This document shows positions 50,733 through 64,000 of a DNA stretch of 64,000 nt, piece by piece. A model generated the notes under the pieces. That model saw only the letters and a program-made list of their open reading frames with translations. It was not told the origin of the DNA and searched no databases. A program made the translations under genes and the position numbers. The stretch covers positions 76,272 to 140,271 of the forward strand of contig CAWBHP010000016.1 of the NCBI GenBank assembly GCA_963788685.1, read 5' to 3'. This DNA is from an uncultured Chloroflexia bacterium (GTDB lineage: Bacteria > Chloroflexota > Limnocylindria > Limnocylindrales > CSP1-4). The first letter of the stretch is position 1. Every line of letters starts with the position of its first letter.

Positions 50733-52430
50733 ATGGTAGCGAAGTCGGCCGCCGCATCGGCGTCTCCGGCCTTGGCCGGGGATCCCATCCAGCTTCGTCA
50801 ATTCGTCCAGTGGCTGGCGGCCGTCGCGTTTGCTTTTGCCAGTGCCAGCGTGGTCGCGTACATCGACGTGCACGATCCCGCGATCGCTGCGATCGCCCTG
50901 GTCAACGCGGGCTTCGGCTGCTGCCTGCTCCTCGTCGGCTATCTCGGTGTTGGAACGCGTATCACGGCCGCGGCCGGCCTTGCCGTCGCCCTGGGCTTCC
51001 TGGTAATAGCGTTGGCGATCGCGGTCGCCCTGCCCGAAGGCATGACGGCACTGGCGGTTCTGCCGATGTTGGCGGTCGCCGTCGCCCTGCGGGCGCCCGA
51101 CCCGCGCGTACTACTTCGGCTGCTCGTCGTCGGAGGAGCGGCGGGACTCCTCCTGGGAGTCGTGGGCGAGATCGCCCAACGCCAGTCGGCGTTCTCGGTT
51201 GGCTTGGGCCTGCTACGCGTTGGCGGGCAGGCAATGGCCGTGGTCCTGGTCATCTACTCGCTCTGGCAGTTCAGCGGCCTCCTGCGCCACTCACTCGACC
51301 GGGTCAGGGAGGCGAACGCGGCCCTGCAGGAGGCGCAGGGCGGCCTGACGTCGGCCAACGAAGTGCTCCGCCGCCACGTGTCCCAGCTCGAGTTGCGCAA
51401 TCGGGAGATGACCCGGCTGGTCGAGTTGGGCGAGTTGCTCTCGTCGTCCCACACGAGCGCGGAAATGGCGGCGGTGATCTCGCGGCTCGTTCCACCGCTG
51501 TTTGCCGGGGATGCCGGCGCGTTCTACGAGCTCGGCGGCGGCAGCGTTGCGGTGGAGGCGGTGGCGGTATGGGGCGACCCACCGCCGGCTCGGCTGGTCT
51601 TCTCGCCGACTGAATGCTGGGCGCTCCGGCGGGGGCGCGTCCACGTCATGGACGGTTCCGCTTCCGAGCTCCGCTGCCCGCACGTCGAGGAGGCAACTCC
51701 GGAAGGCGCCATCTGCGCTCCGCTGGCGGCCGAAGGCGAGTCCCTGGGTGTCCTTCACCTTCAGCTCCGGCGGATTGTTCCGGAGCGGCAGCGAGCCGCG
51801 CTCCTCGCGGACCGCGGGCGTCTGATCCGGACCCTTGCCGAGCAGCTCGAGCTCGCGCTGGCGAATTTCCGGTTGCGAGAGACGCTACGCGAGCAATCCG
51901 CCCGCGATCAGCTGACGGGCTTGTTCAATCGCCGCTACATGGAGGAATCGCTGGTTCGCGAGCTTCGGCGGGCGAGCCGCGAGCACTACAGCCTGGGACT
52001 GTTGATGATGGACCTCGACCACTTCAAGGATCTCAATGACGGCTACGGCCACTCGGCAGGCGATCTGATGCTGCGCGCGGTGGGTGATTTCCTGGGGACC
52101 TCGGTGCGCGGCGACGACGTGGCCTGCCGGTACGGCGGCGAGGAATTCGTCGTGATCCTCCCTCGGGCCTCGCTGGAGAACACGCGCCGGAGGGCGGAAG
52201 CGCTCCGTGAGGGGATGAAGGGCCTGCAGTTCGAACCGTCGGGGCCTCTCATGCCGAACGTGACCATGTCGGTCGGGGTCGCCTGCTCGCCGGAGCACGG
52301 CGAGACCCCCGAACAGCTCATCCACGCTGCCGATGTCGCCCTCTATCGCGCCAAGGCACGAGGTCGGGATCGGGTGGTGGTGGCGAGTGACGGCGACGTT
52401 CGCGAGATTGAGGTGTTCGCGGAGGGCTGA
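50733..52430 (+). CDS. Diguanylate cyclase: multi-TM N-terminal domain, coiled coil, GAF-like domain and GGDEF domain
   Basis: Intact 565 aa. About 6 TM helices. DQLTGLFNRRYMEESL...LMMDLDHFKDLNDGYGHSAGDLMLR...RYGGEEFVVILP (GGEEF active site)...ADVALYRAKARGRDRVV. Confidence 0.88.
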   Translation: MVAKSAAASASPALAGDPIQLRQFVQWLAAVAFAFASASVVAYIDVHDPAIAAIALVNAGFGCCLLLVGYLGVGTRITAAAGLAVALGFLVIALAIAVALPEGMTALAVLPMLAVAVALRAPDPRVLLRLLVVGGAAGLLLGVVGEIAQRQSAFSVGLGLLRVGGQAMAVVLVIYSLWQFSGLLRHSLDRVREANAALQEAQGGLTSANEVLRRHVSQLELRNREMTRLVELGELLSSSHTSAEMAAVISRLVPPLFAGDAGAFYELGGGSVAVEAVAVWGDPPPARLVFSPTECWALRRGRVHVMDGSASELRCPHVEEATPEGAICAPLAAEGESLGVLHLQLRRIVPERQRAALLADRGRLIRTLAEQLELALANFRLRETLREQSARDQLTGLFNRRYMEESLVRELRRASREHYSLGLLMMDLDHFKDLNDGYGHSAGDLMLRAVGDFLGTSVRGDDVACRYGGEEFVVILPRASLENTRRRAEALREGMKGLQFEPSGPLMPNVTMSVGVACSPEHGETPEQLIHAADVALYRAKARGRDRVVVASDGDVREIEVFAEG

Positions 52431-52440
52431 GGGGCTACGT

Positions 52441-53146
52441 TCACCCGCCCTGGAGGATGAGGCCGACCCCCAGCGCGATCAGCCAGATCGACCAGGCGAT
52501 GTAGGCGATCGGGATGATCGTGCCGGCCAAGGCCCAGCCACGTTCCTCGTTCGGGCCGACGAACTCGAGCGTTCCGACCAGCAGCGCCAGCCCGATCGGG
52601 ATGCCGATAAGCCCGAGCCAGCCGGGCAGCACGGCGGTCGAGACGATCGAGCCCGCGACGAGCAGCGTCCAGATGCCCGTGAGCAGGTAGCCGAGGTGCT
52701 CGCCGATGCCCACGCCGAGGAGCCGGTGGAGCGTCGCGAAGGTCACCTCGATTGCGCCCCGCGTCGCTTCGGCATCCGGTCCCTCGGCGGCGACGTACCG
52801 ACGGGCAAGCTCCGGCACCGCGAACGGCCAGCGCACGAGACCGAGGGCCTGCACGAGGGCCGCCGCCGAACCGATGACGATCGAGGCGACGGTCAGCGGT
52901 GCCGGAGCGCCGAGCGCGACCGCGAGTAGCGCCACCAGGGGCAGCATCGCGAGGGCGCTCAGGAGGAGAGCTTCCCAGCGCAGGATCAGTCCCGAGCCCC
53001 CCGGCGGCGAAGCGCCGCAGGATCTCGTCCGGCTCCTTGCGGAGGATGTTCGGGTAGTCGAACGCCCGGCCGAGCTCGAAGAAGGCGACGTTGAAGGCGA
53101 TCGGGACCGCGATCAGCAAGACCGCGGTCAGGACCTCGGCTGTCAC
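52441..53146 (-). CDS. DUF4386-like integral membrane protein; one frame break near 52975
   Basis: VTAEVLTAVLLIAVPIAFNVAFFELGRAFDYPNILRKEPDEILRRFAAGG | ...MLPLVALLAVALGAP...GYLLTGIWTLLVAGSIV...IIPIAYIAWSIWLIALGVGLIL. GTG 53146 overlaps the upstream stop (GTGA). The family call is tentative. Confidence 0.55.
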
Positions 53147-53734
53147 GCCGCCGAGACGGCGCCCGTCTCTCCGCTAGAGAGGACCTTCCAGAGAACGACG
53201 CCCGTGATGATCTGCGAGACGAGGGCCCCGCTCAGACCGTAGACGGGCCAACCGGAAGCAAGAGCCACGCCGATGCCGGAGGTGACGGTCCAGCCGACCG
53301 CCCAGGCGACGCCTGAGGCAACGACCCACAACCAGGCATTGGCGACCCGTTCCCGCATCAGCAAGTGCGGCCTGCCCGGCGCCGAGGGCCAGCCCCGAGA
53401 TGGCACCTAGCACGATTGCCTCGGTCTGGGTCTCGATCTGGCCGATCACCGCAGTGACCGCGGCGAGGGCCACGCCGAGTCCGATCGCGGTCGCTCCCGC
53501 CCAGAGCGCCAGGGCCTGCGGCCGAACGAGCCCCAGCGCAACCGCCTGGCCGGCGCCGATGATCGCCCCTGCGATGAGGCCGGAGATCAGCGCCGCGGGC
53601 ACTGTCGCCGCAGGCCCGCCGATGAGGTGTCCGATGAAGCCGCCGATCGGGAAGCCGATGATGGCGACGATCCAGCGCAGCAGAAGTGATCGTCCGGCTC
53701 CGGAAAGGGCGGGCACGCCCGATGTGGTTGACAC
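53143..53734 (-). CDS. Integral membrane protein, Gly/Ala-rich TM helices; one frame break near 53390
   Basis: GTG 53734 with GAGGAG 7 nt upstream. LLLRWIVAIIGFPIGGFIGHLIGGPAATVPAALISGLIAGAIIGAGQAVALG... | ...ANAWLWVVASGVAWAVGWTVTSGIGVALASGWPVYGLSGALVSQIITGVVLW. Confidence 0.5.
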
Positions 53735-53904
53735 GGTCTGACTCCTCTTCGGGCGCCCCGGCCCCGCTCGCGTGAAGTCATCAGCCGGCGCGCGAACTCC
53801 TGACGGGTGGACCGCGCGCGGGCTGGTAGGGACAAGGCCCAATGCCTCGCGGCCGAGATTGTGCGCCGCTATCTATCCGGTGGCAATGCGCGCACACTCC
53901 CGAT

Positions 53905-54762
53905 CATGACGATGACCGGAAAGACGGTATTGATCACCGGTGGCACAGGCGGAATCGGCCGCGCGGCGGCGATCGGCTTGGCCGCCATGGGTGCCCGGGT
54001 GGGCATCACGGGCCGCGACCGTGCGAGGGCCGAGGCCGCCGCGGCGGCGATCGCCGCGGAGTCGGGCAACCCGGCCATCGACGTCTTCGTCGCCGACATG
54101 TCGTCCCAGGCGGAGGTCCGGCGGTTGGCCGGCGAGGTGCTCGCCGCCTATCCGCGGCTCGACGTGCTGCTCAACAACGTCGGCGGCTTCTGGAATCACC
54201 GCCACGTGACCGCCGACGGCCTGGAGCACACGTTCGCCCTCAATCATCTCGCGCCGTTCCTGCTGACGAACCTGCTGCTCGAACGGCTCACGGCCAGCGC
54301 ACCGGCCCGGGTCGTGACGGTTTCGTCGGGGCGCAGGCCATGGGAAGGATCGACTTCGACGACCTCATGGGTGAGCAGAAGTACTCCGGATCGCGGGCCT
54401 ACGATCAGTCGAAACTGGCCAACGTGATGTTCACCTACGAACTCGCCAAGCGGATCGAGGGAACGGGTGTCACGGCAACGGCGCTGCATCCGGGCCTGAC
54501 GAGTACCGCCTTCAGCGCTGAGGATCCGGCCCTGGGCTGGCTCGTCGCCATCCTGCGACCGTTCATGAAGAGCCCGAAGCGAGGCGCGGAGACGCCCATC
54601 TACCTCGCCAGCTCCGCCGAGGCGGAGGGGGTCAGCGGCAAGTACTTCGCCAACCGCAAGGCCAAGGACTCTCACAAGTCCTCGTACGACGCCGCGACGA
54701 CCGCGCGGCTATGGCAGGTCAGCGCCGATCTCGTCGGCATCCCCGCCGACGCGCCGCACTGA
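53905..54762 (+). CDS. Short-chain dehydrogenase/reductase (SDR); one frame break at the G-run 54328-54331
   Basis: MTMTGKTVLITGGTGGIGRAAA (TGxxxGxG)...LLNNVGG...VVTVSS | GAQAMGRIDFDDL...YDQSKLANV (YxxxK)...LHPGLTST. Adding one G at 54328-54331 restores the frame. Confidence 0.85.
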   Translation, partial: HDDDRKDGIDHRWHRRNRPRGGDRLGRHGCPGGHHGPRPCEGRGRRGGDRRGVGQPGHRRLRRRHVVPGGGPAVGRRGARRLSAARRAAQQRRRLLESPPRDRRRPGAHVRPQSSRAVPADEPAARTAHGQRTGPGRDGFVGAQAMGRIDFDDLMGEQKYSGSRAYDQSKLANVMFTYELAKRIEGTGVTATALHPGLTSTAFSAEDPALGWLVAILRPFMKSPKRGAETPIYLASSAEAEGVSGKYFANRKAKDSHKSSYDAATTARLWQVSADLVGIPADAPH

Positions 54763-55014
54763 CCAACGCCCGCGGCGGTTCATGCGCTGGCTCACCGGCA
54801 CGATTCTGGTGGGTCTCGGCGCTCGCGTGGCGCTCGAACGGGCGTAAGGCCGGTTCCGTCGACAGATCGCACCGGACATTGCTCCCACGTCCTGCATACC
54901 CCTATCGTCCCGGTCGAGCCCGGTGTACGTTGCTGGGCCGGTGGCTGCCCGGCGGACTTGCAGCCACAAATCGGCTCGCCTAGGGCCGCCACGTCTACAC
55001 TTGGGGCCATTGCT

Positions 55015-55852
55015 GTGCGGACCATTGCCGTCGTCAATCGGAAAGGCGGAAGTGGCAAGACCACGACCGCGGTCAGCCTGGCCGCGGTCCTCGCCGAGCG
55101 AGGGCTGACCACCCTCCTGATCGACCTCGACCCCCAGGCGAGCGCGTCAGCCTGGCTCGGCGAGGCCCCTGGCGACCGCGGCCTCTTCGACGCGTTCGTC
55201 GGGACCCGCGATCTCGCCAGCTTGGCCACGAGGACCAAGGTTCCCGGCCTTGACGTCGTGCCTTCCTCGCCGTGGCTGCTCACGGCCGAGCAGACGCTGA
55301 AGGGCGACATGAGCGTCGGGGTCTTCCGGGCACTTCGATCGATTGCCACCCGACTGGGACTACGTGATCGTCGATTGCCCGCCGTCGCTGTCATTCCTGG
55401 CCGTCGGCGCGCTGATGGCCGTCCGCGAAGTCGTCGTCCCCGTCGAAGCCCACTCGATCGCGCTGCCAGGCGTCGCGGCGGTGGTTCGCGAAATGGGCCG
55501 GATCCAGTCGGACCTCAATCCCCACCTCCGGAGCCCGATGATCGTCGCGTGCCGGCTGAACCGGACCGTTCACGCCCGGCGCGTGGTCGAAGAGCTGGAA
55601 CGCGTCTACGGCTGGCGCCTGGCCCGGGCGACGATCCGCGAGAGCATCCGCCTGGCGGAGGCCGAGGCCGCTCGGATGCCGATCACGACCTATGCGCCCG
55701 ACAGCGGAGTCGCCGTCGACTATCGGCTCCTCGTGGACGAGCTCATCGCGCGGGAGGAGATCGCCGAGCCGAGTCCTCACGGCGGTTCCCGCCTGCATCG
55801 ACTGGTGACGCGCTCCTTGCGGTTCGCCACCTTCAAGCGCCGAGCCGTCTGA
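55015..55852 (+). CDS. ParA/MinD-family P-loop ATPase; one frame break near 55345
   Basis: GTG 55015. IAVVNRKGGSGKTTTAVSLAAVLAERGLTTLLIDLDPQASAS (deviant Walker A KGGxGKT)... | WDYVIVDCPPSLSFLAVGALMAVREVVVPVEAHSIAL...TTYAP. Confidence 0.8.
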
Positions 55853-55856
55853 CGTC

Positions 55857-56672
55857 ATGCGCCAGGACGAGTTTCTCCTGGCGATTCTCGGGGCCACCAT
55901 CCTCGTCAACGTTCTACTCGTCGTCGCCAGTTGGCTCCACGCGCGCGGCGCCGGACGGGGCCGGACTCGGGTTGCTCGCGTACCGCCGGGCGAAGCGACC
56001 CCGCGACCAGTGGCGCCACTCAGCGACGCCGACCGGCAGGACGACCGGCGAGTCGCGGCGGCCGTCGAGGCCTTCGTCGCCGACGTTGCGCCCGACTCGG
56101 CCGGCTCGACGCACGTGCCAACCCCGGCGGACGTGCTCGCCCGTAGCCAGGAAGCCCGCGGCGGCGGACCTGCCGCAGTGACAGAGACGGAGACGGACGA
56201 CCGATTGCCGGCCGGGCCTGTCGGGCTCGTCAGGCTTGCCGGGCCGACAGATGCGGAGACGTGGGAGCGAATCGTCCGCGAGGAGTCCGCGCGAGCGGCG
56301 CGCTTCGGGCGGCCTTCCACGGTGGTGACGGCCAGCCTGCCTCAACTCGAGGACGTCGCCGATCGCTCGGGCCGCGAGGCCGCTGATCGGGTCGTGGCGG
56401 AGATCCTGCGTCTGCTGGAATCGGAGGTCCGCGCCGTCGACCGAATCGTCCGGCTGAGCGACTCGACGTTCGGCATCCTCCTGCTGGAGACGGGCGAGCT
56501 GGGGGCGTCGCGCTATGCGGCCCGCGTTCGAGCAGCCGCCGACGCCTGGCTCAGCGCCGCGGGCCTGGCGGTTCGGCTCGAGTTCGACTGGACGAGCCTG
56601 CCCAACGATGGTGAGCTCGATGCCCTGATGGCGGCGGCCCGGCCACGAACGGGAAACGCCGCGGGCGCCTGA
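55857..56672 (+). CDS. Membrane-anchored protein with a degenerate GGDEF-like domain (GGDEF replaced by SDSTF)
   Basis: Intact. N-terminal TM LLAILGATILVNVLLVVASWL. C-terminal WERIVREESARAARFGRPSTVVTASLPQLEDVADRSGREAADRVVAEILRLLESEVRAVDRIVRLSDSTFGILLLET follows the GGDEF-domain pattern but lacks the catalytic GG[DE]EF. It starts 4 nt after the ParA-like stop. Confidence 0.5.
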   Translation: MRQDEFLLAILGATILVNVLLVVASWLHARGAGRGRTRVARVPPGEATPRPVAPLSDADRQDDRRVAAAVEAFVADVAPDSAGSTHVPTPADVLARSQEARGGGPAAVTETETDDRLPAGPVGLVRLAGPTDAETWERIVREESARAARFGRPSTVVTASLPQLEDVADRSGREAADRVVAEILRLLESEVRAVDRIVRLSDSTFGILLLETGELGASRYAARVRAAADAWLSAAGLAVRLEFDWTSLPNDGELDALMAAARPRTGNAAGA

Positions 56673-56676
56673 CGAA

Positions 56677-57072
56677 TCAGGCGCCGCGCTCGCGCGCCGA
56701 CCAGTATTCCCGCCAACCGCCGAACTCCGTGATGTCGCGATGGATCCCCTCCGCCAGCTCGCGCGGGAAGAGGATCCCCGGCACGGTGCGGCCGTCGGCC
56801 AGCTCCACCGGCCCGCGATAGAGGCCCGGCGGCTCACCCGCCTCGACCCGCGCCCAGACATCGTCTGGCACGTCATAGAGCTCGCCCGGAACGGAGATCC
56901 CGCCCTCCGCGACCTCGAACATGCCCGGATGGACGTCCCCGATCGAAAAGATCCGATAGCGCGGTGCGGTCATGAATTCACCGAGGAACGTCGCCCCGTC
57001 GAGGTTCGCGTTGAGCTTCAGACCGCGCATCAGCGTGCCGTTCACGAAGAGTTGGCGTCGACACCTGGTCAC
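56677..57072 (-). CDS. Gamma-glutamylcyclotransferase-fold protein (AIG2 / allophanate hydrolase C-terminal-domain-like)
   Basis: GTG 57072 with AGAAGGAG upstream. LFVNGTLMRGLKLNANLDGATFLGEFMTAPRYRIFSIGDVHPGMFEVAEGGISVPGELYDVPDDVWARVEAGEPPGLYRGPVELADGRTVPGILF. Confidence 0.6.
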   Translation of the reverse strand: MTRCRRQLFVNGTLMRGLKLNANLDGATFLGEFMTAPRYRIFSIGDVHPGMFEVAEGGISVPGELYDVPDDVWARVEAGEPPGLYRGPVELADGRTVPGILFPRELAEGIHRDITEFGGWREYWSARERGA

Positions 57073-57096
57073 CTCCTTCTTGCGTCCGAACGATAG

Positions 57097-57129
57097 GGAA
57101 GGCGCCGGCGACTTCCGCCGGCGCCTTCC
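57097..57129 (-). terminator. Very strong GC hairpin (14-bp stem, 5-nt loop) between the permease and the GGCT-like gene; no U-tract
   Basis: GGAAGGCGCCGGCG-acttc-CGCCGGCGCCTTCC read directly. It lies 44 nt downstream of the permease stop (57173) and 25 nt upstream of the next GTG. Confidence 0.45.
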
Positions 57130-57172
57130 GCTGGATCGGCCGGGTTGGGGGGACCACCGGCCGAGGCAATAA

Positions 57173-58834
57173 TCAGGGCATCGCCGCTTCCGGTTCCTCC
57201 TCGGGTGGTGCCGTCAGGGCGGTGCGGAGCTCGTCCATCGAGCCATGGCCCTCGCGCCACGCGGAAAGCCAGATGACGATGGCCGCGAAGACGTAGCCGA
57301 TCCAGATCGGCTCCGGCGTGCGGACACTGAACGACCCATCGACGACCTGGAAGATCAGGCCAACGGGGTCATGGATCAGCCCGACGAACGCAAGGACCGC
57401 GGCGATGAGCGTGTAGACGATCGCCCGGCTGTACTCCTTGGCGATGACGAAGTAGGCAATCGCGCCGAGCATCAACCCGGCCACGACCGCCCCAGCGCCG
57501 AGCCGCTCGAGGCCGGCGTACAGCACGCCCTGCGCACCAAGCGCGTCGTAGCCGACCGTGCCGGCGTTCGTCCCGGCCGCTCCGAGGGCGCCGTCGACGA
57601 GCGTCTTCGCCCACTGGGCGATGTTCGGGACGATGGCCAGCACGATCGCCGGGGCGTACTTCGCCCTCGACGTCTGGAACGCCTGCGCGCCGATGACGAG
57701 GCCGATGAACAGCAGGATCGGGAACAGCGCGGCTCGCGGGATGACCGCCAGGAACAGGCCGACGAGCCCGAGCAGGCAGATCACCGCGATGACGATCCCG
57801 GTCGCGAGCGAATAGCCGATCCGGCCGCCGACGGCCTTCCAGCCCGGATGGCCGATGTAGACCGCGGGCGGAAACGGGCTGCCGAGGAACGACCCGACGA
57901 TCGCCCCGATCCCGTCCGCGAGCAGGATGTGGCGGAGGTTGTAGTTGTCGCCGGCGACGGACGCCGACTCGACGTTGTTCATGCCCTCGGTGAAGTTGTA
58001 GACGCCGAGCGGGATCGCCGTGACGAGGAGGGGCAGGATGTCGGTCAGGCCGCTGAGCACCTCGCTGCCGGGGGTCGGCAGGTGGATCCCGACCTGGGCG
58101 AAGGAGTCCGTCACCGCCTGCGGCGACAGGCCGGTCCAGCCGAACACGAAGTACGACAGCCAGCCGATGACCGAGCCGACGATGATCGCGGCAAGACCGC
58201 CCGGGATTCCGAACGGCAGCCGAACGCCGGCCGTCCACGACAGCAGGATGATCGCGAACGTCGCGAGCGCGATCCACGCGGCGTTGAACATCTCGAACGA
58301 CGCGTTCATCGAGATGAACGCGACGGAGATGCCGGCCAGCGTCCCGAGCATCGCCGCACGCGGCGTGTATTTCCGGATCGTCGGGCCGATGAACGCGCCG
58401 ATCAGGACGATGACGCCGATGAGGAACGCCCAGGCGAGCCCGGCCTGCCAGGCCTGCATGACGTCGCCGGTCCTGCCGAGGACCGGCAGCATGATCACGA
58501 AGGTCACGAAGAAGTAGTGCGGCACGGACGGTCCGTACGGCATCGCCGCGACGTCGTCGCGGCCCTCTTTCCTCGCGAGTTGATATGCGAGGTAGGCATA
58601 GAACAGGTTGCCGAGCGGCAGCGCGATCGCCAGGGCTGGCAGGATCCGGCCGAAGACGGTGTCGGCCGGCAGCTGCACGACGAACAACATGAGCGACGAC
58701 AGCACGAGCACGTTGAGCAGGACGTTCGTGCCGAGGCCGAAGAATGCGTTCCAGTCGCCCGGAACCCAGAGCCTCGGCCTGAATGTGCCGGAATTCGTGG
58801 TCACGTGGTGGACTCCCTCCTCGTGCAGGGCCAT
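57173..58834 (-). CDS. Multi-pass permease, NCS2 (xanthine/uracil/vitamin C permease)-superfamily-like
   Basis: Intact 553 aa with about 13 TM helices. LWVPGDWNAFFGLGTNVLLNVLVL...NFTEGMNNVESASVAGDNY...LGSPFPPAVYIGHPGWKAVGGR. The family assignment is from overall pattern only. Confidence 0.55.
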   Translation of the reverse strand: MALHEEGVHHVTTNSGTFRPRLWVPGDWNAFFGLGTNVLLNVLVLSSLMLFVVQLPADTVFGRILPALAIALPLGNLFYAYLAYQLARKEGRDDVAAMPYGPSVPHYFFVTFVIMLPVLGRTGDVMQAWQAGLAWAFLIGVIVLIGAFIGPTIRKYTPRAAMLGTLAGISVAFISMNASFEMFNAAWIALATFAIILLSWTAGVRLPFGIPGGLAAIIVGSVIGWLSYFVFGWTGLSPQAVTDSFAQVGIHLPTPGSEVLSGLTDILPLLVTAIPLGVYNFTEGMNNVESASVAGDNYNLRHILLADGIGAIVGSFLGSPFPPAVYIGHPGWKAVGGRIGYSLATGIVIAVICLLGLVGLFLAVIPRAALFPILLFIGLVIGAQAFQTSRAKYAPAIVLAIVPNIAQWAKTLVDGALGAAGTNAGTVGYDALGAQGVLYAGLERLGAGAVVAGLMLGAIAYFVIAKEYSRAIVYTLIAAVLAFVGLIHDPVGLIFQVVDGSFSVRTPEPIWIGYVFAAIVIWLSAWREGHGSMDELRTALTAPPEEEPEAAMP

Positions 58835-58879
58835 CCCGGGCTCCGCGTGCGATTCCCCTCCGTCAACCCATCGGGGCGG

Positions 58880-59611
58880 CTAGTCGATAGGCATCACGCC
58901 GTCGCGGGGGCCGCCGAGGCCTGGGCCACGGCGTCCGGATACTGCTCGGCCAGGCCCGTCGAGGAAGTCCGTCGACGTCCCGACGAAGCCGAAGATGCCG
59001 CCCTGCGCCTTGATCATCTGCCAGGGCCGACTCTCTGGAACTCGGGGAAGTAGGACGCCACGGCGTCCTCGAGGACGAGGGCGTCGTAGCCGCGGTCGTT
59101 CGCCTCGCGGACGCTCGTCTGGACGCACACCTCGGTGGTCACGCCGCAAACGACGAGCTGCCTGATGCCACGGGTCTTGAGGATCGCGTCCATGTCGGTC
59201 GCGTAGAAGGCGCCCTTGCCCGGCTTGTCGATGATCGGTTCGCCCGCGATCGGGTAGACCTCGTCGACGATGTCGTGGCCGTGCTCGCCGCGAACAAGGA
59301 GCCGACCCATCGGGCCCTCGTCGCCGATGTGGATCTTGGGCCTGCCGCGCTCGTACTTCGCGGCCGGGAGGTCGGACAGGTCCGCCCGGTGGCCTTCGCG
59401 GGTGTGGATGATGAACAGGCCCGCGGCCCGGCAAGCCTTGAGCACCCGCTCGGCCGGCGGGAAGGGCCTTGAGCAGGAGCGACGTGTCGTTTCCGAGCGA
59501 TTCGCCGAAGCCACCCGGGTACACGAAGTCCCGCTGGAAATCGATCATGACCAGCGCCGTGGTCTTCGGATCGAACTCGAACTCATACGGTTCTGCCTTG
59601 GCAGACAGCAT
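58880..59611 (-). CDS. Isochorismatase-family cysteine amidohydrolase (BiuH/RutB/N-carbamoylsarcosine amidase-like); about 2 frame breaks
   Basis: ATG 59611 with GAAGGAGG 7 nt upstream. KTTALVMIDFQRDFVYPGGFGESLGND | ...AAGLFIIHTREGHRADLSDLP...IDKPGKGAFYATDMDAILKTRGIRQLVVCGVTTEVCVQTSVREANDRGYDALVLEDA (Asp-Lys-Cys triad context) | QMIKAQGGIFGFVGTSTDFL. Stop at 58880 or 58894. Confidence 0.75.
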   Translation of the reverse strand: MLSAKAEPYEFEFDPKTTALVMIDFQRDFVYPGGFGESLGNDTSLLLKALPAGRAGAQGLPGRGPVHHPHPRRPPGGPVRPPGREVRARQAQDPHRRRGPDGSAPCSRRARPRHRRRGLPDRGRTDHRQAGQGRLLRDRHGRDPQDPWHQAARRLRRDHRGVRPDERPRGERPRLRRPRPRGRRGVLLPRVPESRPWQMIKAQGGIFGFVGTSTDFLDGPGRAVSGRRGPGLGGPRDGVMPID

Positions 59612-59634
59612 CTCGTCGCCTCCTTCGTCCCTGC

Positions 59635-60611
59635 TCACGTTCGTGATTGCACCGGATCGGGCACGATGCGCGTGCCGGTTTCCCCGCCGATCGCCCGTTC
59701 GAGCGCGGCCGGGGTGGTGATGAGGACTTCCTGGCCGCCACGCTCGAGGAAGCGGATCGCCGCCTCGACCTTGGGGCCCATGGATCCCTTGGGAAACTCG
59801 CCCGCCTCCAGGTACGCCGCGCGCCTCGTCGACCGCCATCCGATCGACCCAGCGCTCGTCCGGCTGGCGGAAGTGGACCGCGACGCGCTCCACGCCGGTC
59901 GACAACACCAGGAGCGGGATGTCCAGACTGGCCGCGAGCAGGGCCGACGCCCGATCCTTGTCGATGACCGCCTCGACGCCGCGGTACTGGCCGGGCGCGG
60001 TCTCGACGACGGCGATGCCACCGCCGCCGACGGCGATGACGACGTAGCCGGCGTCGACGAGGGCACGGATCGGTTCGCCTTCCACGATCCGCAGCGGCTC
60101 CGGTGAGGCGACGACCCGGCGGTAGCCGCGCCCGGAGTCCTCGATCATCGTCCAGCCGTTCCGCTCGGCCTTCTGGTCCGACTCCGCCTTGGAGTAGAAC
60201 GGTCCGATCGGCTTGGTGGGCTGACTGAAGGCCGGATCGGCCGGGTCGACCACGACGTGCGTCAGGACGCAGGCGACGCGGTCGGGAAGCCCGCGGGCGG
60301 CCAGCTCGTTGAGGAGCGCCTGGCCAAGGATGTGGCCGATCCCGCCCTGCGAGTCGGCGACGGACATCTCGAGGTTCAACTGCGGGACCGGCACATCCTC
60401 GGGGACCGAGCTCGGAGCGGAGGAGGATGAAGCCGACCTGCGGGCCGTTGCCGTGCGTGACGACGACGCCCCAGCCCGTGGCGACCAGCGCGGCGATGTG
60501 GCGGGCCGTCTCCCGGGCGTTCTCGTACTGCTCATCGATCGAGCCGCGCTGGCCGTCGAGGATGAGCGCGTTGCCGCCGATCGCGACGACGGCTCGACGT
60601 TCCATCGTCAT
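59635..60611 (-). CDS. arcC: Carbamate kinase; about 2 frame breaks
   Basis: MTMERRAVVAIGGNALILDGQRGSIDEQYENARETARHIAALVATGWGVVVTHGNGPQVGFILLRSE | ...MSVADSQGGIGHILGQAL...PTKPIGPFY...GYRRVVASPEP...VIAVGGGGIAVV...GVEAVIDKDRASALLA | EAGEFPKGSMGPKVEAAIRFLERGGQEVLIT. Confidence 0.85.
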
Positions 60612-62070
60612 GCCGCAGCCTCGCTGGGCCCGGCCACGCCGAGCGAGCGCGCCGAGAGCCGCGATCGCGCTCGAGAAGCAGGCCAGCGGCGCGCGGGCGA
60701 TCCCCGCCCCGATCTGCCCGACGCCAGCCCGGCGGTGGGCGATGCCGGTGTTGATGACGGGCGCGATCCCGGAGTCGACGACCCGGCGGGCATCGATTCC
60801 GGTCGGCGTGCCGACGAACCCCAGCGGTGGCAGCGCGTACGACGGGTTGCGGGCGAGCGTGATCCGGCCCATCAGGCGGGTGAACTCCAGGGCGTCGGCC
60901 GGGCTGCCGCCCACGAAGCGGACGATCGCCGGTGCCGCGGCCATCGCGAACCCGCCGATCCCGAACGTCTCGGTGATCGCGCTGTCGCCGAGGTCGGGGT
61001 TGGCGTCGTCGGGGCCGTAGCCCGGGAAAGTAGAGCCCGTCGGGGACGCCGACCGGCGTCGTGAACCAGGCATCGCCGGTGCCGGACAGGCGGATCCCGA
61101 AATCCACGCCGTTGCGGGCCATCGCGGTCACGACCGTCGATCCGTCGATCCCGTGCGCGCTGTCCATGCGCCGACTTGCACGCCGCCATCGACAGGTTGA
61201 GGAAGAAGTGGTCGTTGCCGCGCAGGAAGTCGAAGACAGCCGCGGCCGTCGTCGTATCGGCGGTTCGAACCAGGGCCGGAGCGATGGCCCGGGTGAACAG
61301 CGAGGTCGCCGCGATGTTCCGGTTGTGCCCTTCGTCGCCCATCTGGAGCGCCTGGGCGGTGAGGCTTCGCAGGTCGAGCGGCCCACCGCTCTGGAGAGCG
61401 CCCGACAGCGCCGGGCCCAACACGTCGACGAACCAGCGCAGGCGATCGAGCACCGACTCGTCGTACGCCCCGAATCGCAGGACCTTGCCGAGGCCCTCGT
61501 TGAGCGTCGCGTGCGCCCGCATCCCCGAGGCGACGTTCTCGACGACCACGACCGGCATCGACGGGCTGATCACGCCCGCCATCGGGCCCGACGGCCTCGT
61601 GATCGTGGCAGGGCGAGAGCTCGACGCCGCCCGACTCGACGAGCGCCGTCGCCTCCTCGGGCGACGCGGCCCAGCCCTCGAACAGGATCGCCCCGATGAT
61701 GGCGCCCTCGACCGGCCCGCACATCGCGCTCCCACGCGATCGGCGGGCCGGCGTGGAGGATGTGCCGATCGCCGAGCCCGAGCGCCACCCGGGCCGGCCG
61801 GACGTCGACGAGCATCGGCTGCGCGGCGAGGAGGCGATCAACGGCCGTGGCGTTGGCCGTGGCGATCCTTTGGCCGATCGGATCGTCCGGGTCGTCCTCG
61901 AGGCGGGCGAGGAGGAGGCCCACGTCGCGATCGCCCTCTGCCGGCGGGCGCCAGTCGAGGCGGGCGACCGACGCCCCGTTGGCGGCGAGCGGTTGGGCGA
62001 ACATCTCGAGGCCGACATTCACGGCACGCACGCCCTCCGGGAAGAGCACCGACGTTCCCGCCTCGCTCAT
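60608..62070 (-). CDS. DUF1116 (YlbE/AllG-like) protein; about 3 frame breaks
   Basis: MSEAGTSVLFPEGVRAVNVGLEMFAQPL...HILHAGPPIAWE | MCGPVEGAIIGAILFEGWAASPEEA...SPCHDHEAVGP | MAGVISPSMPVVVVENVASG...ATLNEGLGKVLRFGAYD...MGDEGHNRNIAATSL... | GIGGFAMAAAPAIVRFVGG...PTGIDARRVVDSGIAPVINTGIAH. The ATG overlaps the FdrA stop and the stop overlaps the arcC ATG (both ATGA). Confidence 0.7.
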
Positions 62071-63607
62071 TCGTGATGTCCGGCTGCGACCGCGGCCGGC
62101 GCAACGATCCGGGCCGCGAGGGCCGCGGCCTGGGCATTGCTCGGGGCGAGGAGGACGCCGGCCTCGGCGAGCCGAGCCTCCTGGGCGACGAGGTTCTGCG
62201 GGTCGCCGCTGGTGCCACACACCGACGCGACGACGGCGAACCGGCGGCCGTCACGGGCGGCCTCCTCCCTTGCGGCCTCGATCGCGCTCGCCAGCGCGCC
62301 GGCGGGATCGGCATGGGCGCCGTAGCCGAGCACGACGTCGAGCAGGATGACCGCCGTGGAGGGATCGCGGGCCGCGGCTGCCAGGTGCTCGTTCCGGAGG
62401 CGTGGATCGATCATCGGGTGCGGTCGACCGACGGTGTACTCGTCGTCGCCCAGGTCGACGATGTCGTGGAGCTTCGCACCCTTATCCCCGAGCGACGCGC
62501 CGCAGGACGAGCTTGGCCTCGCCCGCCAGCGAGCCGCCGCTGTAGAGCCCGCGGATCCGCCACTGCGTCGAATCCAGGGCCGCCTGCGCTTCGCGAACCA
62601 CTGTCTCGTCGGTGGCCGCCCCGTTCAGGGCATCGTCGTCCGGGATCGGCTCGTCCCAGCGCCGATCGCGCTGGCGATCGTCGCGGCCGCCTCGAACGTC
62701 GCCGCCGGGATCACTCCGGCGGCGGTGATCGCGGCCGGATCGCCGCCCAGGAAGTTGACGATGACCGGCTTCCCGACGGCGCTTGCTGCCGCCAGGACCA
62801 GCGTCGGTCACCGATTCCGACGGCGGCTTCGAGATCAGGACGATGAGCTCCGTCCCGGGATCGGCGCCAAGCCGCTCGAGCGCCGCCAGCATCATCGTGC
62901 CGCCGACTCGTTCGTCCAGATCGCGCCCGCCGACGCCGATCGCCTGCGAGACCCCGGCGCCGTAGCGATCGATGAGGCAGCTCACCTGCTGGAGGCCCGT
63001 CCCGGACGCGCCGATCAGGCCGATCGTCCCGCGCCGGACGACATTGGCGAACCCGAGCGGAACGCCATCCAGGATCGCGGTACCGCAGTCCGGGCCCATC
63101 AACAGCAGGCCCCGTCTCCGGGCCATCGACTTCAGCTCGATCTCGTCCTCGACCGGGACGTTGTCGCTGAAGAGGAAGACGTTGAGGCCGCGCTTGAGCG
63201 CCTTGAGCGCCTCCGCCGTGGCGTACGTGCCGGGCGTGGAGATCAAGGCGAGGTTGGCGCCGGTCTCCGCCACGCCTTCGGCGAGCGTCCGCGCCTCCGT
63301 GCGGGTCGGTCTCGCTCGAGCCCTCCGTGCCCGGCCCGGCCAATCGTTCCGCGGCTCGCTCCAGCGCAAGCGTCGCGGCGCTCTCGTCGTCTGACGCGAC
63401 CGCCACCACCAGGTCATTCGGCCCGGCCGACGCGGTAGCGTCCGACAGGAGGCCGGCGGCCGCGAGAACCTCCCGATTGGCGGGCGTGGCCATGACCAGG
63501 CCGGCCCGATCGATGCCGGCCAGCGACTCGATCTCGGCAGCGATCTGCATCAGCTCGACCGAATCGCGGTAGCTGTTCGGGAAGATGCGGGCCTGGACCG
63601 GCGACAT
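62067..63607 (-). CDS. fdrA: FdrA (AllF-like) protein, succinyl-CoA-synthetase-alpha/CoA-ligase fold; about 3 frame breaks
   Basis: MSPVQARIFPNSYRDSVELMQIAAEIESLAGIDRAGLVMATPANREVLAAAGLL | LALISTPGTYATAEALKALKRGLNVFLFSDNVPVEDEIELKSMARRRGLLLMGPDCGTAILDGVPLGFANVVRRGTIGLIGASGTGLQQV...AIGVGGRDL | MIDPRLRNEHLAAAARDPSTAVILLDVVLGYGAHADPAG. It is collinear with E. coli FdrA as I remember it. Confidence 0.8.
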
Positions 63608-64000
63608 CAGGCCAACCCCCGGCGCACGCCGGCCGCGACGTCGAGGCCGACCAGGACCCCGAACAGGCAGTCCGTGCCCGACGTCGCGCCCCAGGCAACC
63701 GCCCGATCGATGGCCGCGGGGATCGCCTCGTCGTCGGACCCAAGGAGCGCCGCCAGCAGGGTGTGCAGTCGCTCGGCAAACTCGCCAGCACCTGCATGGC
63801 GCAGGAGGGTGGCAGCGAGCGCGGTCGTACGGCCTTCGACTTCGCCGACGGCCAGCGCCAGGAACCCGGCGGACGGCTGAGGAAGGGCGTGGAGTGCGGC
63901 CTCGATACCGACCAGGACATCGTCGCCGGATGGGGTCAGGCCCGGACCAAGCCCGATGAGGCCTGCAGCCATCTCGGCCGCGAGACTCCGGTCGCCTGTC
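63607..64000 (-). CDS. DUF2877 (YlbF/AllH-like) protein, C-terminal part; 5' end beyond the window
   Basis: ...AAEMAAGLIGLGPGLTPSGDDVLVGIEAALHAL...AVAWGATSGTDCLFGVLVGL. The stop shares one nt with the fdrA ATG (TGATG at 63605-63609). The frame is open to the window edge. The family call is from motif memory plus synteny. Confidence 0.5.
   Translation of the reverse strand, partial: TGDRSLAAEMAAGLIGLGPGLTPSGDDVLVGIEAALHALPQPSAGFLALAVGEVEGRTTALAATLLRHAGAGEFAERLHTLLAALLGSDDEAIPAAIDRAVAWGATSGTDCLFGVLVGLDVAAGVRRGLA

What the first reader, a model, noticed from the sequence alone, without database searches (positions are those of the whole stretch)
56677..64000. FdrA/DUF1116/DUF2877 + carbamate kinase operon wired to a cysteine amidohydrolase, a permease and an allophanate-hydrolase-C-like domain: candidate uncharacterised ATP-yielding N-carbamoyl catabolic pathway
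Seen in the sequence:
- Seven same-strand genes are packed with 1-4 nt start/stop overlaps (TGATG 63605-63609, ATGA 62067-62070, ATGA 60608-60611).
- The order is DUF2877-like, FdrA-like, DUF1116-like, carbamate kinase, isochorismatase-fold cysteine hydrolase, a 13-TM permease, a strong hairpin, then a GGCT-fold protein.

Established knowledge, from memory:
- E. coli fdrA-ylbE-ylbF-ybcF lie in the allantoin regulon. They have been reported to encode oxamic transcarbamylase (allFGH) plus carbamate kinase, so oxalurate + Pi gives oxamate + carbamoyl-P, which yields ATP.
- Isochorismatase-fold cysteine hydrolases include biuret hydrolase, RutB and N-carbamoylsarcosine amidase.
- The GGCT-like fold is the C-terminal domain of allophanate hydrolase.

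Inference: no allantoinase, allantoate amidohydrolase or ureidoglycolate gene is visible in these 7 kb. The transcarbamylase-like complex may therefore act on a different carbamoylated substrate (biuret, allophanate or an N-carbamoyl amino-acid type). That substrate would be imported by the permease and trimmed by the amidohydrolase.
Basis: partly seen in the sequence, partly recalled or inferred. Interest (0 to 1): 0.72.

Follow-up and report, generated by a model that had tools for sequence, protein, structure and literature searches.

The report
Triuret-hydrolase-linked carbamoyl-phosphate ATP cassette
The operon is real: a widespread but never-tested gene cassette, also present in about 29% of complete E. 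coli genomes, that probably breaks down a small urea-type nitrogen compound such as triuret and makes ATP from it through carbamoyl phosphate; its frame breaks here look like sequencing errors.

Summary
The seven minus-strand genes are present as described. In order they are AllH/DUF2877 (partial), FdrA/AllF, AllG/DUF1116, carbamate kinase, an isochorismatase-fold cysteine hydrolase, a permease, a conserved hairpin and a stand-alone allophanate-hydrolase C-domain (AH_C) protein.

About 16 net frame breaks are single-base insertions relative to two close relatives whose genes are mostly intact. Similar breaks split unrelated genes elsewhere in the window, so they are most likely sequence errors, not pseudogenes.

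The hydrolase is TrtA-like. Its best solved match is triuret hydrolase, and all six residues that separate TrtA from biuret hydrolase are TrtA-type.

Relatives show no allantoin genes beyond 64000, only a divergent PucR regulator.

The same module (TrtA-like, AllH, AllF, AllG, carbamate kinase, AH_C, a permease, a regulator) recurs in at least eight phyla. It is in 1556 of 5426 complete E. coli genomes, including BLR(DE3) and Nissle 1917, but not K-12.

Two papers noticed the co-location but tested nothing.

Best model: a phosphorolytic, ATP-yielding route for triuret or carboxybiuret-type ureides. The substrate is inferred, not shown. Interest 0.6; new variant of a known kind.

The parts
63607..64000 (-). 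allH-like gene (DUF2877), C-terminal 131 codons only. The gene starts beyond the window end.
   Evidence: PF11392 AllH, E 4.7e-27. 85% identical to the C-terminus of the 305-aa AllH of L001. The stop overlaps the allF start (TGATG).
62067..63607 (-). allF-like gene (FdrA; CoA_binding plus Ligase_CoA fold), about 511 aa after correction. About 5 net single-base insertions break the frame (near 63315, 62804, 62664, 62650, 62501).
   Evidence: NCBIfam NF004760 FdrA, 513 bits, cutoff 433. Pfam CoA_binding and Ligase_CoA on fragments. 42% identical to E. coli AllF and 45% to the E. coli B cassette FdrA. Indel map.
60608..62070 (-). allG-like gene (DUF1116), 485 aa after correction. About 5 net insertions (61725, 61583, 61169, 61030, about 60645). 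The N-terminal ~60 aa resemble the C-terminal tail of E. coli FdrA.
   Evidence: PF06545, E 3.5e-57. PDB 3CLQ, E 1.4e-121. 56% identical to the E. coli B cassette DUF1116, 52% to AllG/YlbE, 48% to YahG.
59635..60611 (-). Carbamate kinase (allK-like), 324 aa after correction. 2 insertions (60408, 59819).
   Evidence: NCBIfam PRK12352, 379 bits, cutoff 266. 51% identical to the E. coli B cassette ArcC and 39% to AllK/YbcF.
58894..59611 (-). TrtA-like isochorismatase-fold cysteine amidohydrolase, 237 aa after correction. 4 insertions (59457, 59033, 59018, 58958). A strong AAGGAGG ribosome-binding site sits upstream.
   Evidence: PF00857, E 2e-34. Best PDB match is triuret hydrolase 6XIX/6XJ4 at 261 bits, then BiuH at 235 and 217, then RutB at 106. 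The BiuH equivalog model scores 266 bits, below its 370 cutoff. Residues D24, K129, C162, F29, K132, Q202 and the TrtA-type F35, N41, A134, E160, Y187, I205 are all present (positions from PMC7948467).
57173..58834 (-). Intact 553-aa polytopic membrane protein, the presumed substrate permease. It belongs to a family without Pfam, NCBIfam or PDB coverage.
   Evidence: Intact ORF. More than 8000 homologues, which JGI labels 'AGZA family xanthine/uracil permease-like'. No Pfam hit even at E<=10, no NCBIfam hit, no PDB hit. It is conserved next to the TrtA-like gene in 23 loci. In Proteobacteria and Bacteroidota an NCS1 permease takes its place.
57103..57135 (-). Intercistronic hairpin: 14-bp G+C-rich stem, 5-nt loop, no U tail. 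A second weaker hairpin lies just upstream, at about 57140-57165.
   Evidence: Sequence. The spacer folds at -56.1 kcal/mol, z = -4.6, and the equivalent hairpins in L002 and L001 differ in the inner stem. The terminator scan reports no minus-strand site here and Rfam has no match.
56677..57072 (-). Stand-alone allophanate-hydrolase C-terminal-domain protein (AH_C, GGACT-like fold), 131 aa, with no amidase domain.
   Evidence: PF21986, E 8.7e-32; PF06094, E 8e-10. PDB 5C5Z (a stand-alone 137-aa homologue), E 5e-26; AH C-domains 4GYR and 4ISS are weaker. It is conserved in 26 of the 80 related loci and replaced by full-length AtzF in 4.

Best explanation
This is the Chloroflexota (Limnocylindria-like) copy of a self-contained, horizontally spread catabolic cassette for a small imported polyureide. 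The substrate is most likely triuret or its product carboxybiuret, compounds that arise from urate oxidation, cyanuric acid or urea fertiliser.

**Proposed steps**
1. The permease imports the substrate.
2. The TrtA-like cysteine amidohydrolase removes a terminal amide nitrogen as NH3 and leaves an N-carboxylated ureide (carboxybiuret).
3. The FdrA/DUF1116/DUF2877 complex is a paralogue of E. coli oxamate carbamoyltransferase AllFGH. It cleaves a carbamoyl-N bond with phosphate, for example carboxybiuret + Pi -> carbamoyl phosphate + allophanate, and possibly allophanate + Pi -> carbamoyl phosphate + carbamate.
4. Carbamate kinase converts carbamoyl phosphate + ADP to ATP + NH3 + CO2.
5. The stand-alone AH_C protein handles an N-carboxy intermediate by decarboxylation, the role proposed for this domain inside allophanate hydrolase.

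A PucR-type regulator, encoded divergently just beyond the window in relatives, probably controls the operon.

**Shown:** gene families, gene order, the TrtA active-site signature, conservation of the module, and absence of allantoin genes.
**Inferred:** the substrate, the order of steps, and the AH_C role.

The frame breaks in this window are most likely sequence errors.
For: **Families and order.**

**The hydrolase is TrtA-type.**
- Its best solved relative is triuret hydrolase: 261 bits, against 235 and 217 for BiuH and 106 for RutB.
- All six TrtA-versus-BiuH discriminating positions of PMC7948467 are TrtA-like in the window protein, and all but position 134 (Ala, Ser or Met there) in the homologues from the related loci where those positions could be read (44 loci in all).

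**The module is conserved.**
- Of 40 related genome loci with at least 6 kb on both sides of AllG, 23 carry the TrtA-like gene.
- Of those 23, 20 also have AH_C or AtzF, 20 have carbamate kinase and 21 have a permease. None has AllC/D/E.
- No locus holds a second isochorismatase-family paralogue such as BiuH.
- The permease is replaced by a non-orthologous one, AGZA-like versus NCS1, while the enzymes stay the same.

**Link to allophanate.**
- In four loci a full-length allophanate hydrolase sits next to AllF-AllG in place of AH_C. In two of them it is in one divergent unit with the TrtA-like gene and the permease, again without BiuH.
- That gene set is simplest to explain if the carbamoyltransferase turns carboxybiuret into allophanate.

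**The carbamoyltransferase has diverged by context.**
- AllG clades follow context, and E. coli AllG falls outside the TrtA-type clades.
- The E. coli species carries three paralogous sets at 40-56% identity: allFGHK and yahEFGI in K-12, and this cassette in B and B2 strains. The window set is closest to the cassette set.

**Phenotype hint.** E. coli Nissle 1917 carries the cassette and uses biuret as a nitrogen source in Biolog PM3. K-12 lacks the cassette and does not (PMC7924626).

**The enzyme chemistry is known.** E. coli AllFGH is an experimentally shown carbamoyltransferase coupled to carbamate kinase (PMC11326118, PMC9843812).

**The frame breaks look like errors.**
Against: - No biochemical or genetic test exists for this cassette in any organism.
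- The hydrolase is only 56% identical to characterised TrtA against 50-52% to BiuH. The cassette hydrolases may be a sister subclade with a different substrate.
- The carbamoyltransferase is 52% identical to E. coli AllG, so it could still use oxalurate.
- In comammox Nitrospira, allFGHK sits beside a complete trtA-biuH-atzF set (PMC12625717). That fits two neighbouring pathways as well as one.
- With only AH_C and no amidase domain, the fate of allophanate in this cassette is unexplained.
- The Nissle versus K-12 biuret phenotype is a correlation between strains that differ in many genes. Characterised TrtA barely acts on biuret (PMC7948467).
- The survey took the 80 AllG relatives closest to the window, so it is not a random sample.
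Confidence: 0.5

Rival explanations
1. An oxalurate pathway with a different entry point. The complex is a true oxamate carbamoyltransferase, as in E. coli. The TrtA-like hydrolase and AH_C either make oxalurate from an imported precursor (for example an oxaluric amide or an N-carbamoyl-oxalurate-type ring-opened urate oxidation product) or dispose of oxamate.
For: - AllG is 52% and AllF 42% identical to the characterised E. coli enzyme, and the kinase pairing is the same.
- The FdrA model scores above its curated cutoff.
- Oxalurate and triuret are both urate oxidation products (PMC12625717, PMC7948467).
Against: - No known enzyme for making oxalurate (AllB/C/E/D) is in the window or in any of 82 related loci.
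- The triuret-binding residues of TrtA are strictly conserved.
- The E. coli species keeps this set alongside chromosomal allFGHK at only 41-49% identity, which argues against the same job.
- Full-length allophanate hydrolase replaces AH_C in some loci. That points to allophanate, not oxamate.
Confidence: 0.25
2. Two independent pathways that happen to be neighbours. One is triuret or biuret hydrolysis, completed by BiuH and AtzF encoded elsewhere. The other is oxalurate phosphorolysis. This is how the nitrifier study read it.
For: PMC12625717 reports allFGHK next to a full trtA-biuH-atzF set in comammox Nitrospira and proposes two pathways for purine breakdown products.
Against: - The genes overlap translationally in one operon.
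- One permease and one regulator accompany the whole set.
- The same gene set moves as a unit across phyla, onto plasmids and into an E. coli island.
- No BiuH or AtzF is found in the 64-kb window.
Confidence: 0.1
3. Pyrimidine (Rut-like) degradation. The hydrolase acts like RutB on a ring-opened pyrimidine, and the NCS1 or AGZA-like permease imports a nucleobase. This was suggested for the E. coli island in PMC12928451.
For: - The hydrolase has a weaker match to RutB: 120 bits in NCBIfam and 106 bits to PDB 8BKD.
- The E. coli version has a 'cytosine permease' annotation.
Against: - No RutA-type ring-opening monooxygenase or other Rut genes turn up among the conserved neighbours.
- The hydrolase scores far better against TrtA and BiuH than against RutB and carries the TrtA signature.
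Confidence: 0.05
4. The operon is a dead relic in this organism: the roughly 16 frame breaks are genuine inactivating mutations.
For: - The density of breaks is higher here, about 1 per 250-270 nt between 58958 and 63320, than in the window overall.
- The adjacent permease and AH_C genes are unbroken.
Against: - Almost every indel is a one-base insertion outside homopolymer runs. Real gene decay would be expected to include deletions and stop codons, and the corrected genes have no internal stops.
- Similar breaks split unrelated transporter, ATPase and RNase-like genes elsewhere in the window.
- Substitutions specific to the window lineage in the broken genes still sit mainly at third codon positions, 89 of 122.
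- The related long contig L001 has a frame break of its own in allF.
Confidence: 0.08

Closest known systems
E. coli oxamate (oxamic) carbamoyltransferase AllFGH with catabolic carbamate kinase AllK (fdrA-ylbE-ylbF-ybcF; PMC11326118, PMC9843812)
   Same: - Three adjacent genes of the same families plus a carbamate kinase.
- AllG is 52%, AllF 42%, AllK 39% and the AllH C-terminus 38% identical.
- The expected chemistry is the same: phosphorolysis of an N-acylurea-type carbamoyl bond to carbamoyl phosphate, then ATP.
   Different: - The gene order is H-F-G-K, not F-G-H-K.
- No allB/C/D/E genes are nearby.
- The set sits in a different AllG clade.
- A small domain at the FdrA C-terminus in E. coli is at the AllG N-terminus here.
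- It is wired to a TrtA-like hydrolase and an AH_C protein, which the all operon lacks.
Uncharacterised E. coli cassette in the tkt1 island / GR29 (APECO1_2632-2639; between ysgA and metE in B and B2 strains, and on conjugative plasmids)
   Same: - Same enzyme set: cysteine hydrolase, DUF2877, FdrA, DUF1116, carbamate kinase, AH_C protein.
- It is the closest paralogue set: hydrolase 65-66%, AllG 56%, kinase 51%, AH_C 48%, AllF 45% identical.
- The hydrolase carries the same TrtA signature.
   Different: - In E. coli the hydrolase gene comes first, the permease is NCS1 ('cytosine permease') and the regulator is LysR.
- Here the hydrolase follows the kinase, the permease is the AGZA-labelled family and the regulator is PucR-type.
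- Neither version has a tested function.
Triuret/biuret hydrolytic pathway TrtA-(TrtB)-BiuH-AtzF (Herbaspirillum BH-1, Rhizobium 3841; PMC7948467)
   Same: - The hydrolase shares the catalytic triad and all six TrtA-specific positions.
- It is 56% identical to both classical TrtAs.
- An allophanate-hydrolase C-domain homologue is present.
   Different: - No BiuH, no amidase domain of AtzF, no TrtB and no AtzD are present.
- A phosphorolytic carbamoyltransferase plus carbamate kinase stand in their place.
- The transporter is a permease rather than the BMP-type ABC system.
biuH/trtA-allFGHK co-location in comammox Nitrospira and ammonia-oxidising archaea (PMC12625717)
   Same: An isochorismatase-family ureide hydrolase lies next to allFGH and allK. 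Upstream purine or allantoin genes are absent.
   Different: - Those clusters also hold biuH and atzF or a gatA-like amidase, and ABC or CodB transporters.
- The authors read them as two pathways.
- The window cassette has a single hydrolase and only AH_C.

Membership tests
Oxamate carbamoyltransferase AllFGH (EC 2.1.3.5) | Three adjacent genes of the FdrA, DUF1116 and DUF2877 families | tested here: met
   NF004760 at 513 bits against a cutoff of 433; PF06545, E 3.5e-57; PF11392, E 4.7e-27.
Oxamate carbamoyltransferase AllFGH (EC 2.1.3.5) | Co-transcribed catabolic carbamate kinase | tested here: met
   PRK12352 at 379 bits against a cutoff of 266. The ATGA overlap at 60608-60611 joins it to allG.
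Oxamate carbamoyltransferase AllFGH (EC 2.1.3.5) | Placed with the allantoin-to-oxalurate genes (allB, allC, allE, allD) | tested here: not met
   tblastn with the E. coli proteins gives no AllC/D/E hit in the window or in 82 related loci. The only AllB-like hits are weak (25-28% identity): one far away in the window at 25351-26643 and a few in related loci, where they correspond to a dihydroorotase-like gene next to pyrB.
Oxamate carbamoyltransferase AllFGH (EC 2.1.3.5) | Orthology to E. coli AllFGH rather than to a paralogous set | tested here: not met
   The window AllG is 56% identical to the E. coli B cassette protein, 52% to AllG and 48% to YahG. E. coli AllG falls outside the TrtA-type clades in a neighbour-joining tree. 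The margins are modest.
Oxamate carbamoyltransferase AllFGH (EC 2.1.3.5) | Oxalurate + Pi <-> oxamate + carbamoyl phosphate activity | not testable with these tools
   Needs an enzyme assay.
Triuret hydrolase TrtA | Isochorismatase-like fold with the Asp-Lys-Cys triad and substrate residues F29, K132, Q202 | tested here: met
   D24, K129, C162, F29, K132 and Q202 are all present. The alignment to 6XIX is ungapped.
Triuret hydrolase TrtA | TrtA-type residues at the positions that separate TrtA from BiuH (F35, N41, A134, E160, Y187, I205; PMC7948467) | tested here: met
   All six are TrtA-type in the window protein. BiuH has Y, Y, A/S, D, T, V at these positions.
Triuret hydrolase TrtA | Closer to characterised TrtA than to BiuH overall | tested here: inconclusive
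   56% identical to two TrtAs against 50-52% to BiuHs. The classical TrtAs are 62% identical to each other, so the cassette enzymes may be a sister subclade.
Triuret hydrolase TrtA | Genomic company of BiuH and AtzF (classical pathway) | tested here: not met
   No second isochorismatase-family paralogue is in any locus, and no amidase-domain AtzF is in the window.
Biuret hydrolase BiuH (NCBIfam NF050097 equivalog) | Score above the curated equivalog cutoff | tested here: not met
   266 bits against a cutoff of 370.
Allophanate hydrolase (AtzF / AH) | N-terminal amidase-signature domain fused to the AH_C domain | tested here: not met
   Only the C domain is present, as a 131-aa protein (PF21986, 110 bits). 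The full-length models score 64-71 bits against cutoffs of 487-511.
NCS2 / AzgA-like (AGZA) nucleobase permeases | Match to the Xan_ur_permease family profile | tested here: not met
   No Pfam hit at E<=10, no NCBIfam hit and no PDB hit. hhalign against a Xan_ur_permease member gives probability 0.3%. The AF2 model is too poor to compare folds, with pLDDT 46. The AGZA label comes only from JGI names.

The most novel reading that the evidence does not exclude
The cassette encodes the first phosphorolytic, energy-conserving route for polyureides. A carboxybiuret/allophanate carbamoyltransferase would be a new substrate specificity of the FdrA/DUF1116/DUF2877 enzyme class. It would yield up to two carbamoyl phosphates, and so up to two ATP, per triuret. 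It would release all four nitrogens without urea, urease, BiuH or the allophanate amidase. That would explain why urease-negative E. coli lineages (B, B2/ExPEC, poultry plasmids) keep the cassette.
Probability: 0.35. Interest if true: 0.75.

Novelty: new variant of a known kind. Interest (0 to 1): 0.6.

Why it matters
**If the model holds**
- It adds a new substrate class and physiological role to a transcarbamylase type whose genes were identified only in 2024.
- It gives the first ATP-yielding route for triuret- or biuret-type nitrogen. These compounds are fertiliser impurities and urate or cyanuric-acid breakdown products.
- It assigns function to eight unannotated genes present in about 29% of complete E. 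coli genomes, including BL21-lineage laboratory strains, Nissle 1917 and most B2 ExPEC.

**It is directly testable**
- K-12 lacks the cassette, while B, Nissle and CFT073 carry it.
- A published Biolog difference (biuret used by Nissle, not by K-12) already points the same way.

**For this window itself**
- The operon is an ordinary member of that cassette.
- Its frame breaks are a data-quality issue.

Tried and rejected
- **Exact-sequence look-up of the window permease** found nothing. I used near relatives instead.
- **Canonical allantoin cluster.** Rejected: no AllC/D/E anywhere, and the flank beyond AllH in relatives is PucR, PyrR and in some loci pyrB/pyrC.
- **AH_C as the known carboxybiuret decarboxylase TrtB.** Rejected: TrtB is treed with AtzH and HpxZ in the supplement of PMC12625717, and I take those to be a different fold, not checked here.
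- **BiuH assignment.** Rejected: below the equivalog cutoff and with the wrong discriminating residues.
- **Permease classification** failed by every route: Pfam, NCBIfam, PDB sequence search, hhalign, and an AF2 model with pLDDT 46 that I did not send to fold search.
- **Rfam** found no riboswitch or known RNA in 52000-64000, L001 or the E. coli B locus.
- **Terminator and promoter scans** found nothing above chance.
- **BL21(DE3) Biolog nitrogen data** are uninformative, because the strain grew in the negative control (PMC6150544).
- **Literature searches** found no functional study of the cassette or of the yah paralogues.
- One locus coordinate guess (L006) was wrong, and I ignored that fold.

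Full report
**1. What is there**

The window has about 70% G+C, so raw ORF lists are noisy. Profile searches on the minus-strand ORF fragments between 56677 and 64000 give the following genes, in the direction of transcription:
- AllH/DUF2877: only the last 131 codons, because the gene runs off the window.
- FdrA/AllF.
- AllG/DUF1116.
- Carbamate kinase.
- An isochorismatase-fold hydrolase.
- A 553-aa membrane protein.
- A 131-aa protein that is an allophanate-hydrolase C-terminal domain (AH_C, GGACT-like fold).

The scores are far beyond chance:
- FdrA: NCBIfam model, 513 bits against a cutoff of 433.
- AllG: E 3.5e-57.
- Carbamate kinase: 379 bits against a cutoff of 266.
- Isochorismatase fold: E 2e-34.
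- AH_C: E 8.7e-32.

The hairpin between the permease and AH_C is real: a 14-bp stem at 57103-57135, with the spacer folding at z = -4.6. It is kept, with inner-stem changes, in two relatives.

**2. The frame breaks**

The window permease has 98% and 96% identical relatives on two metagenome contigs. L002 is 92% identical at the DNA level and L001 is 88%. Both carry the same operon. Every gene is intact in L002. In L001 all are intact except allF, which is called as two genes and has a break of its own.

Against these relatives, the window differs by about 16 net frame-shifting events between 58958 and 63320. Nearly all are one-base insertions outside homopolymer runs. Deleting them restores full-length proteins with no internal stop and 90-98% identity to the relatives.

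Three results argue against real gene decay:
- A codon-position HMM finds similar unexplained frame switches across the whole window.
- Translation shows that these switches split single unrelated proteins, for example an ABC permease near 1427 and 1531, an ABC ATPase near 47899, and a beta-CASP RNase-like protein near 6673 and 7685.
- Substitutions specific to the window lineage in the broken genes are still concentrated at third codon positions, 89 of 122, as in the intact permease.

I conclude that the breaks are most likely sequencing or assembly errors. Real, very recent decay cannot be fully excluded (about 8%).

**3. What lies beyond 64000**

I could not recover the source contig. In L001 and in several other Chloroflexota loci, the DNA beyond allH encodes a divergently transcribed PucR-family regulator (PucR, GGDEF_2 and HTH_30 domains), then PyrR, and in some loci pyrB and pyrC.

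tblastn with E. coli AllA/B/C/D/E finds no allantoin-branch gene near the operon in any relative or in the window. The only hit in the window is a distant amidohydrolase at 25351-26643, 28% identical to AllB. The AllB-like hits in a few related loci (25-28% identity) correspond to the dihydroorotase-like gene next to pyrB.

**4. The hydrolase is TrtA-like**

- The best curated model is BiuH, but at 266 bits against a cutoff of 370. RutB scores 120 bits.
- Against solved structures, the best match is the Herbaspirillum triuret hydrolase TrtA (6XIX/6XJ4, 261 bits, ungapped). BiuH follows at 235 and 217 bits, then RutB at 106.
- The TrtA paper (PMC7948467) lists conserved catalytic and substrate residues, and six positions that differ between TrtA and BiuH: F35, N41, A134, E160, Y187, I205.
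- The window protein has the TrtA residue at all six, plus D24, K129, C162, F29, K132 and Q202.
- It is 56% identical to both classical TrtAs (Herbaspirillum and Rhizobium 3841) and 50-52% to BiuHs. The two classical TrtAs are 62% identical to each other.
- It is therefore a TrtA-type enzyme, possibly a sister subclade.

**5. The module is conserved and mobile**

A scan of one genome per species with an AllG alignment returned 80 loci at 51-89% identity. I clustered the flanking ORFs de novo and named the clusters with Pfam. Two contexts emerged.

*Type A.* The TrtA-like gene, allH, allF, allG, carbamate kinase, AH_C, a permease and a regulator.
- In Chloroflexota, Verrucomicrobiota, Acidimicrobiales, Methylomirabilia and others the order is that of the window, with the AGZA-labelled permease and PucR.
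- In Serratia, Buttiauxella, Dyella, Silvimonas, Burkholderia, Caballeronia and Chryseobacterium the hydrolase comes first, the permease is NCS1 and the regulator is LysR.

*Type B.* Found in Spirochaetota, Thermotogota, Bipolaricaulota and Clostridia. AllF and AllG sit with a PF04199 cyclase, a xanthine-dehydrogenase-like molybdoenzyme, a Xan_ur_permease, a thiolase and GntR.

Counts among the 40 loci with at least 6 kb on both sides of AllG:
- 23 are type A. Of these, 20 have AH_C or AtzF, 20 have the kinase and 21 have a permease.
- 16 are type B.
- One has both, two have neither, and none has AllC/D/E.

Further points:
- The cassette hydrolases from the 44 loci carry the TrtA signature wherever those positions could be read (three are cut short and one lacks its N-terminus), with Ala, Ser or Met at position 134. 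No locus has a second paralogue.
- In four betaproteobacterial or Nitrosomonadales loci a full-length allophanate hydrolase (Amidase + AH_C) replaces AH_C next to allF-allG. In two of them it is in one divergent unit with the TrtA-like gene and the permease.
- AllG clades follow context, and E. coli AllG lies outside the type A clades.

**6. The same cassette in E. coli**

- A protein search of plasmids found the hydrolase at 65% identity on 77 E. coli plasmids, many from poultry.
- The annotated neighbourhood is cysteine hydrolase, DUF2877, FdrA, DUF1116, carbamate kinase, hypothetical (AH_C), cytosine permease, LysR.
- The 8.2-kb unit is in 1556 of 5426 complete E. coli genomes, mostly chromosomal.
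- It lies between ysgA and metE in BLR(DE3) and in Nissle 1917.
- It is part of the 'tkt1 island' / GR29 of B2 ExPEC (PMC3349570, PMC12928451). Those papers list the genes without a tested function, and one suggests pyrimidine breakdown.
- K-12 lacks this cassette but has allFGHK and a third set, yahE-F-G-I with yahJ.
- The three E. coli sets are 40-50% identical to one another, and the window set is closest to the cassette set.
- Nissle 1917 uses biuret as a nitrogen source in Biolog PM3 and K-12 does not (PMC7924626). This is only a correlation.

**7. Mechanism**

What is known:
- E. coli AllFGH catalyses oxalurate + Pi <-> oxamate + carbamoyl phosphate, and AllK then makes ATP (PMC11326118, PMC9843812).
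- TrtA converts triuret to carboxybiuret + NH3 (PMC7948467).
- From my own recollection of Fan et al. 2013, which I did not read here: the C domain of allophanate hydrolase is proposed to decarboxylate the N-carboxy product of its amidase domain.

Carboxybiuret (H2N-CO-NH-CO-NH-COO-) is oxalurate (H2N-CO-NH-CO-COO-) with one extra NH.

The simplest pathway that uses every conserved gene, needs only one hydrolase and explains the AtzF variants is:
1. Triuret is imported.
2. The TrtA-like enzyme makes carboxybiuret.
3. The carbamoyltransferase makes carbamoyl phosphate + allophanate.
4. The kinase makes ATP.
5. Allophanate goes to AtzF where it is present. Otherwise it is cleaved again by the transferase or processed with the help of AH_C.

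An alternative order has AH_C decarboxylate carboxybiuret to biuret, followed by biuret + Pi -> carbamoyl phosphate + urea. This is equally allowed by the data.

All substrate assignments are inference. I give the general model 0.5. The rivals are an oxalurate pathway with a new entry point (0.25), two unrelated neighbouring pathways (0.1), a Rut-like pyrimidine route (0.05) and a dead relic (0.08).

**8. Comparison with what is known, and novelty**

- The locus meets the gene-content definition of an AllFGH-AllK module. It fails the context and orthology tests for the allantoin enzyme.
- It meets the residue-level definition of TrtA but lacks TrtA's classical partners.
- It is not a BiuH equivalog and not an allophanate hydrolase.
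- The co-location of allFGHK with biuH/trtA has been published for nitrifiers, where it was read as two pathways (PMC12625717).
- The E. coli island genes have been listed. I found no experimental study of the cassette.
- The window locus is thus a new member of an already noticed but uncharacterised cassette. The proposed function would be a new variant of a known kind of pathway.

Interest 0.6. The hypothesis is specific, has energetic and ecological meaning, and can be tested at once in standard E. coli strains. The substrate is not established, and the gene association itself is not new.

Noticed in passing
window, e.g. about 1427, 1531, 3651, 3802, 6673, 7685, 11722, 21841, 40220, 47042, 47899, 48705, 49082, 52988, 54321, 55326: Frame switches with no stop codon occur throughout the window. 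They split single proteins such as a PotC-like ABC permease, an ABC ATPase, an aminomethyltransferase-like protein and a beta-CASP RNase-like protein. The window sequence carries scattered one-base errors, so any ORF-based reading of it needs correction.
   Followed up: partly
window 61890-62070 (AllG N-terminus), compared with L003:17205-17348 (E. coli FdrA C-terminus): The first ~60 residues of the window AllG match the last 47 residues of E. coli FdrA at 36% identity. A small domain sits on different sides of the allF/allG gene border in different lineages, which fits the two proteins working as one complex.
   Followed up: partly
L026, L037, L042, L048, L052-L054, L056, L061-L063, L065, L067-L069, L073, L078-L080, L082: A second, different conserved context for FdrA + DUF1116 in anaerobes (Spirochaetota, Thermotogota, Bipolaricaulota, Clostridia). 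It has a PF04199 'cyclase', a three-subunit xanthine-dehydrogenase-like molybdoenzyme, a Xan_ur_permease, a thiolase-like protein and GntR, and is usually without DUF2877. It is probably another uncharacterised N-heterocycle pathway.
   Followed up: partly
window 57173-58834: The permease belongs to a large family (8000 or more homologues) with no Pfam, NCBIfam or PDB sequence match. JGI labels its relatives 'AGZA family'. The AF2 model from a shallow alignment was poor (pLDDT 46).
   Followed up: partly
L036:9239-11647 and L075:8153-11437: Long single ORFs of 802 and 1094 aa cover the allF-allG region in two proteobacterial MAGs from long-read assemblies. They are either true AllF-AllG fusions or read-through caused by assembly errors.
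   Followed up: no
L086:4926-11508 (E. coli K-12 yahE-yahJ), L003:15681-20333 (allFGHK), L085:6001-14188 (E. coli B cassette): The E. coli species carries three paralogous FdrA/DUF1116/DUF2877/carbamate-kinase sets, each with a different partner hydrolase (allantoin genes; the YahJ amidohydrolase; the TrtA-like enzyme plus AH_C). The enzyme type looks like a reusable 'carbamoyl to ATP' module.
   Followed up: partly
L001:2163-2741; L018, L020-L022 upstream of PucR: In several Chloroflexota loci the cassette lies next to pyrR, pyrB and a dihydroorotase-like gene, that is, next to consumers of carbamoyl phosphate. This may be coincidence or a metabolic link.
   Followed up: no
window 55857-56672 (+) and L001/L002 equivalents: A GGDEF-domain protein of 271 aa lies immediately downstream, on the opposite strand. 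ParA-like and further GGDEF/EAL genes follow in relatives. It has no evident link to the operon.
   Followed up: no
window 25351-26643 (-): An amidohydrolase 28% identical to E. coli allantoinase over about 430 residues. It is more likely a dihydroorotase or hydantoinase-type enzyme, and it is 30 kb from the operon.
   Followed up: no
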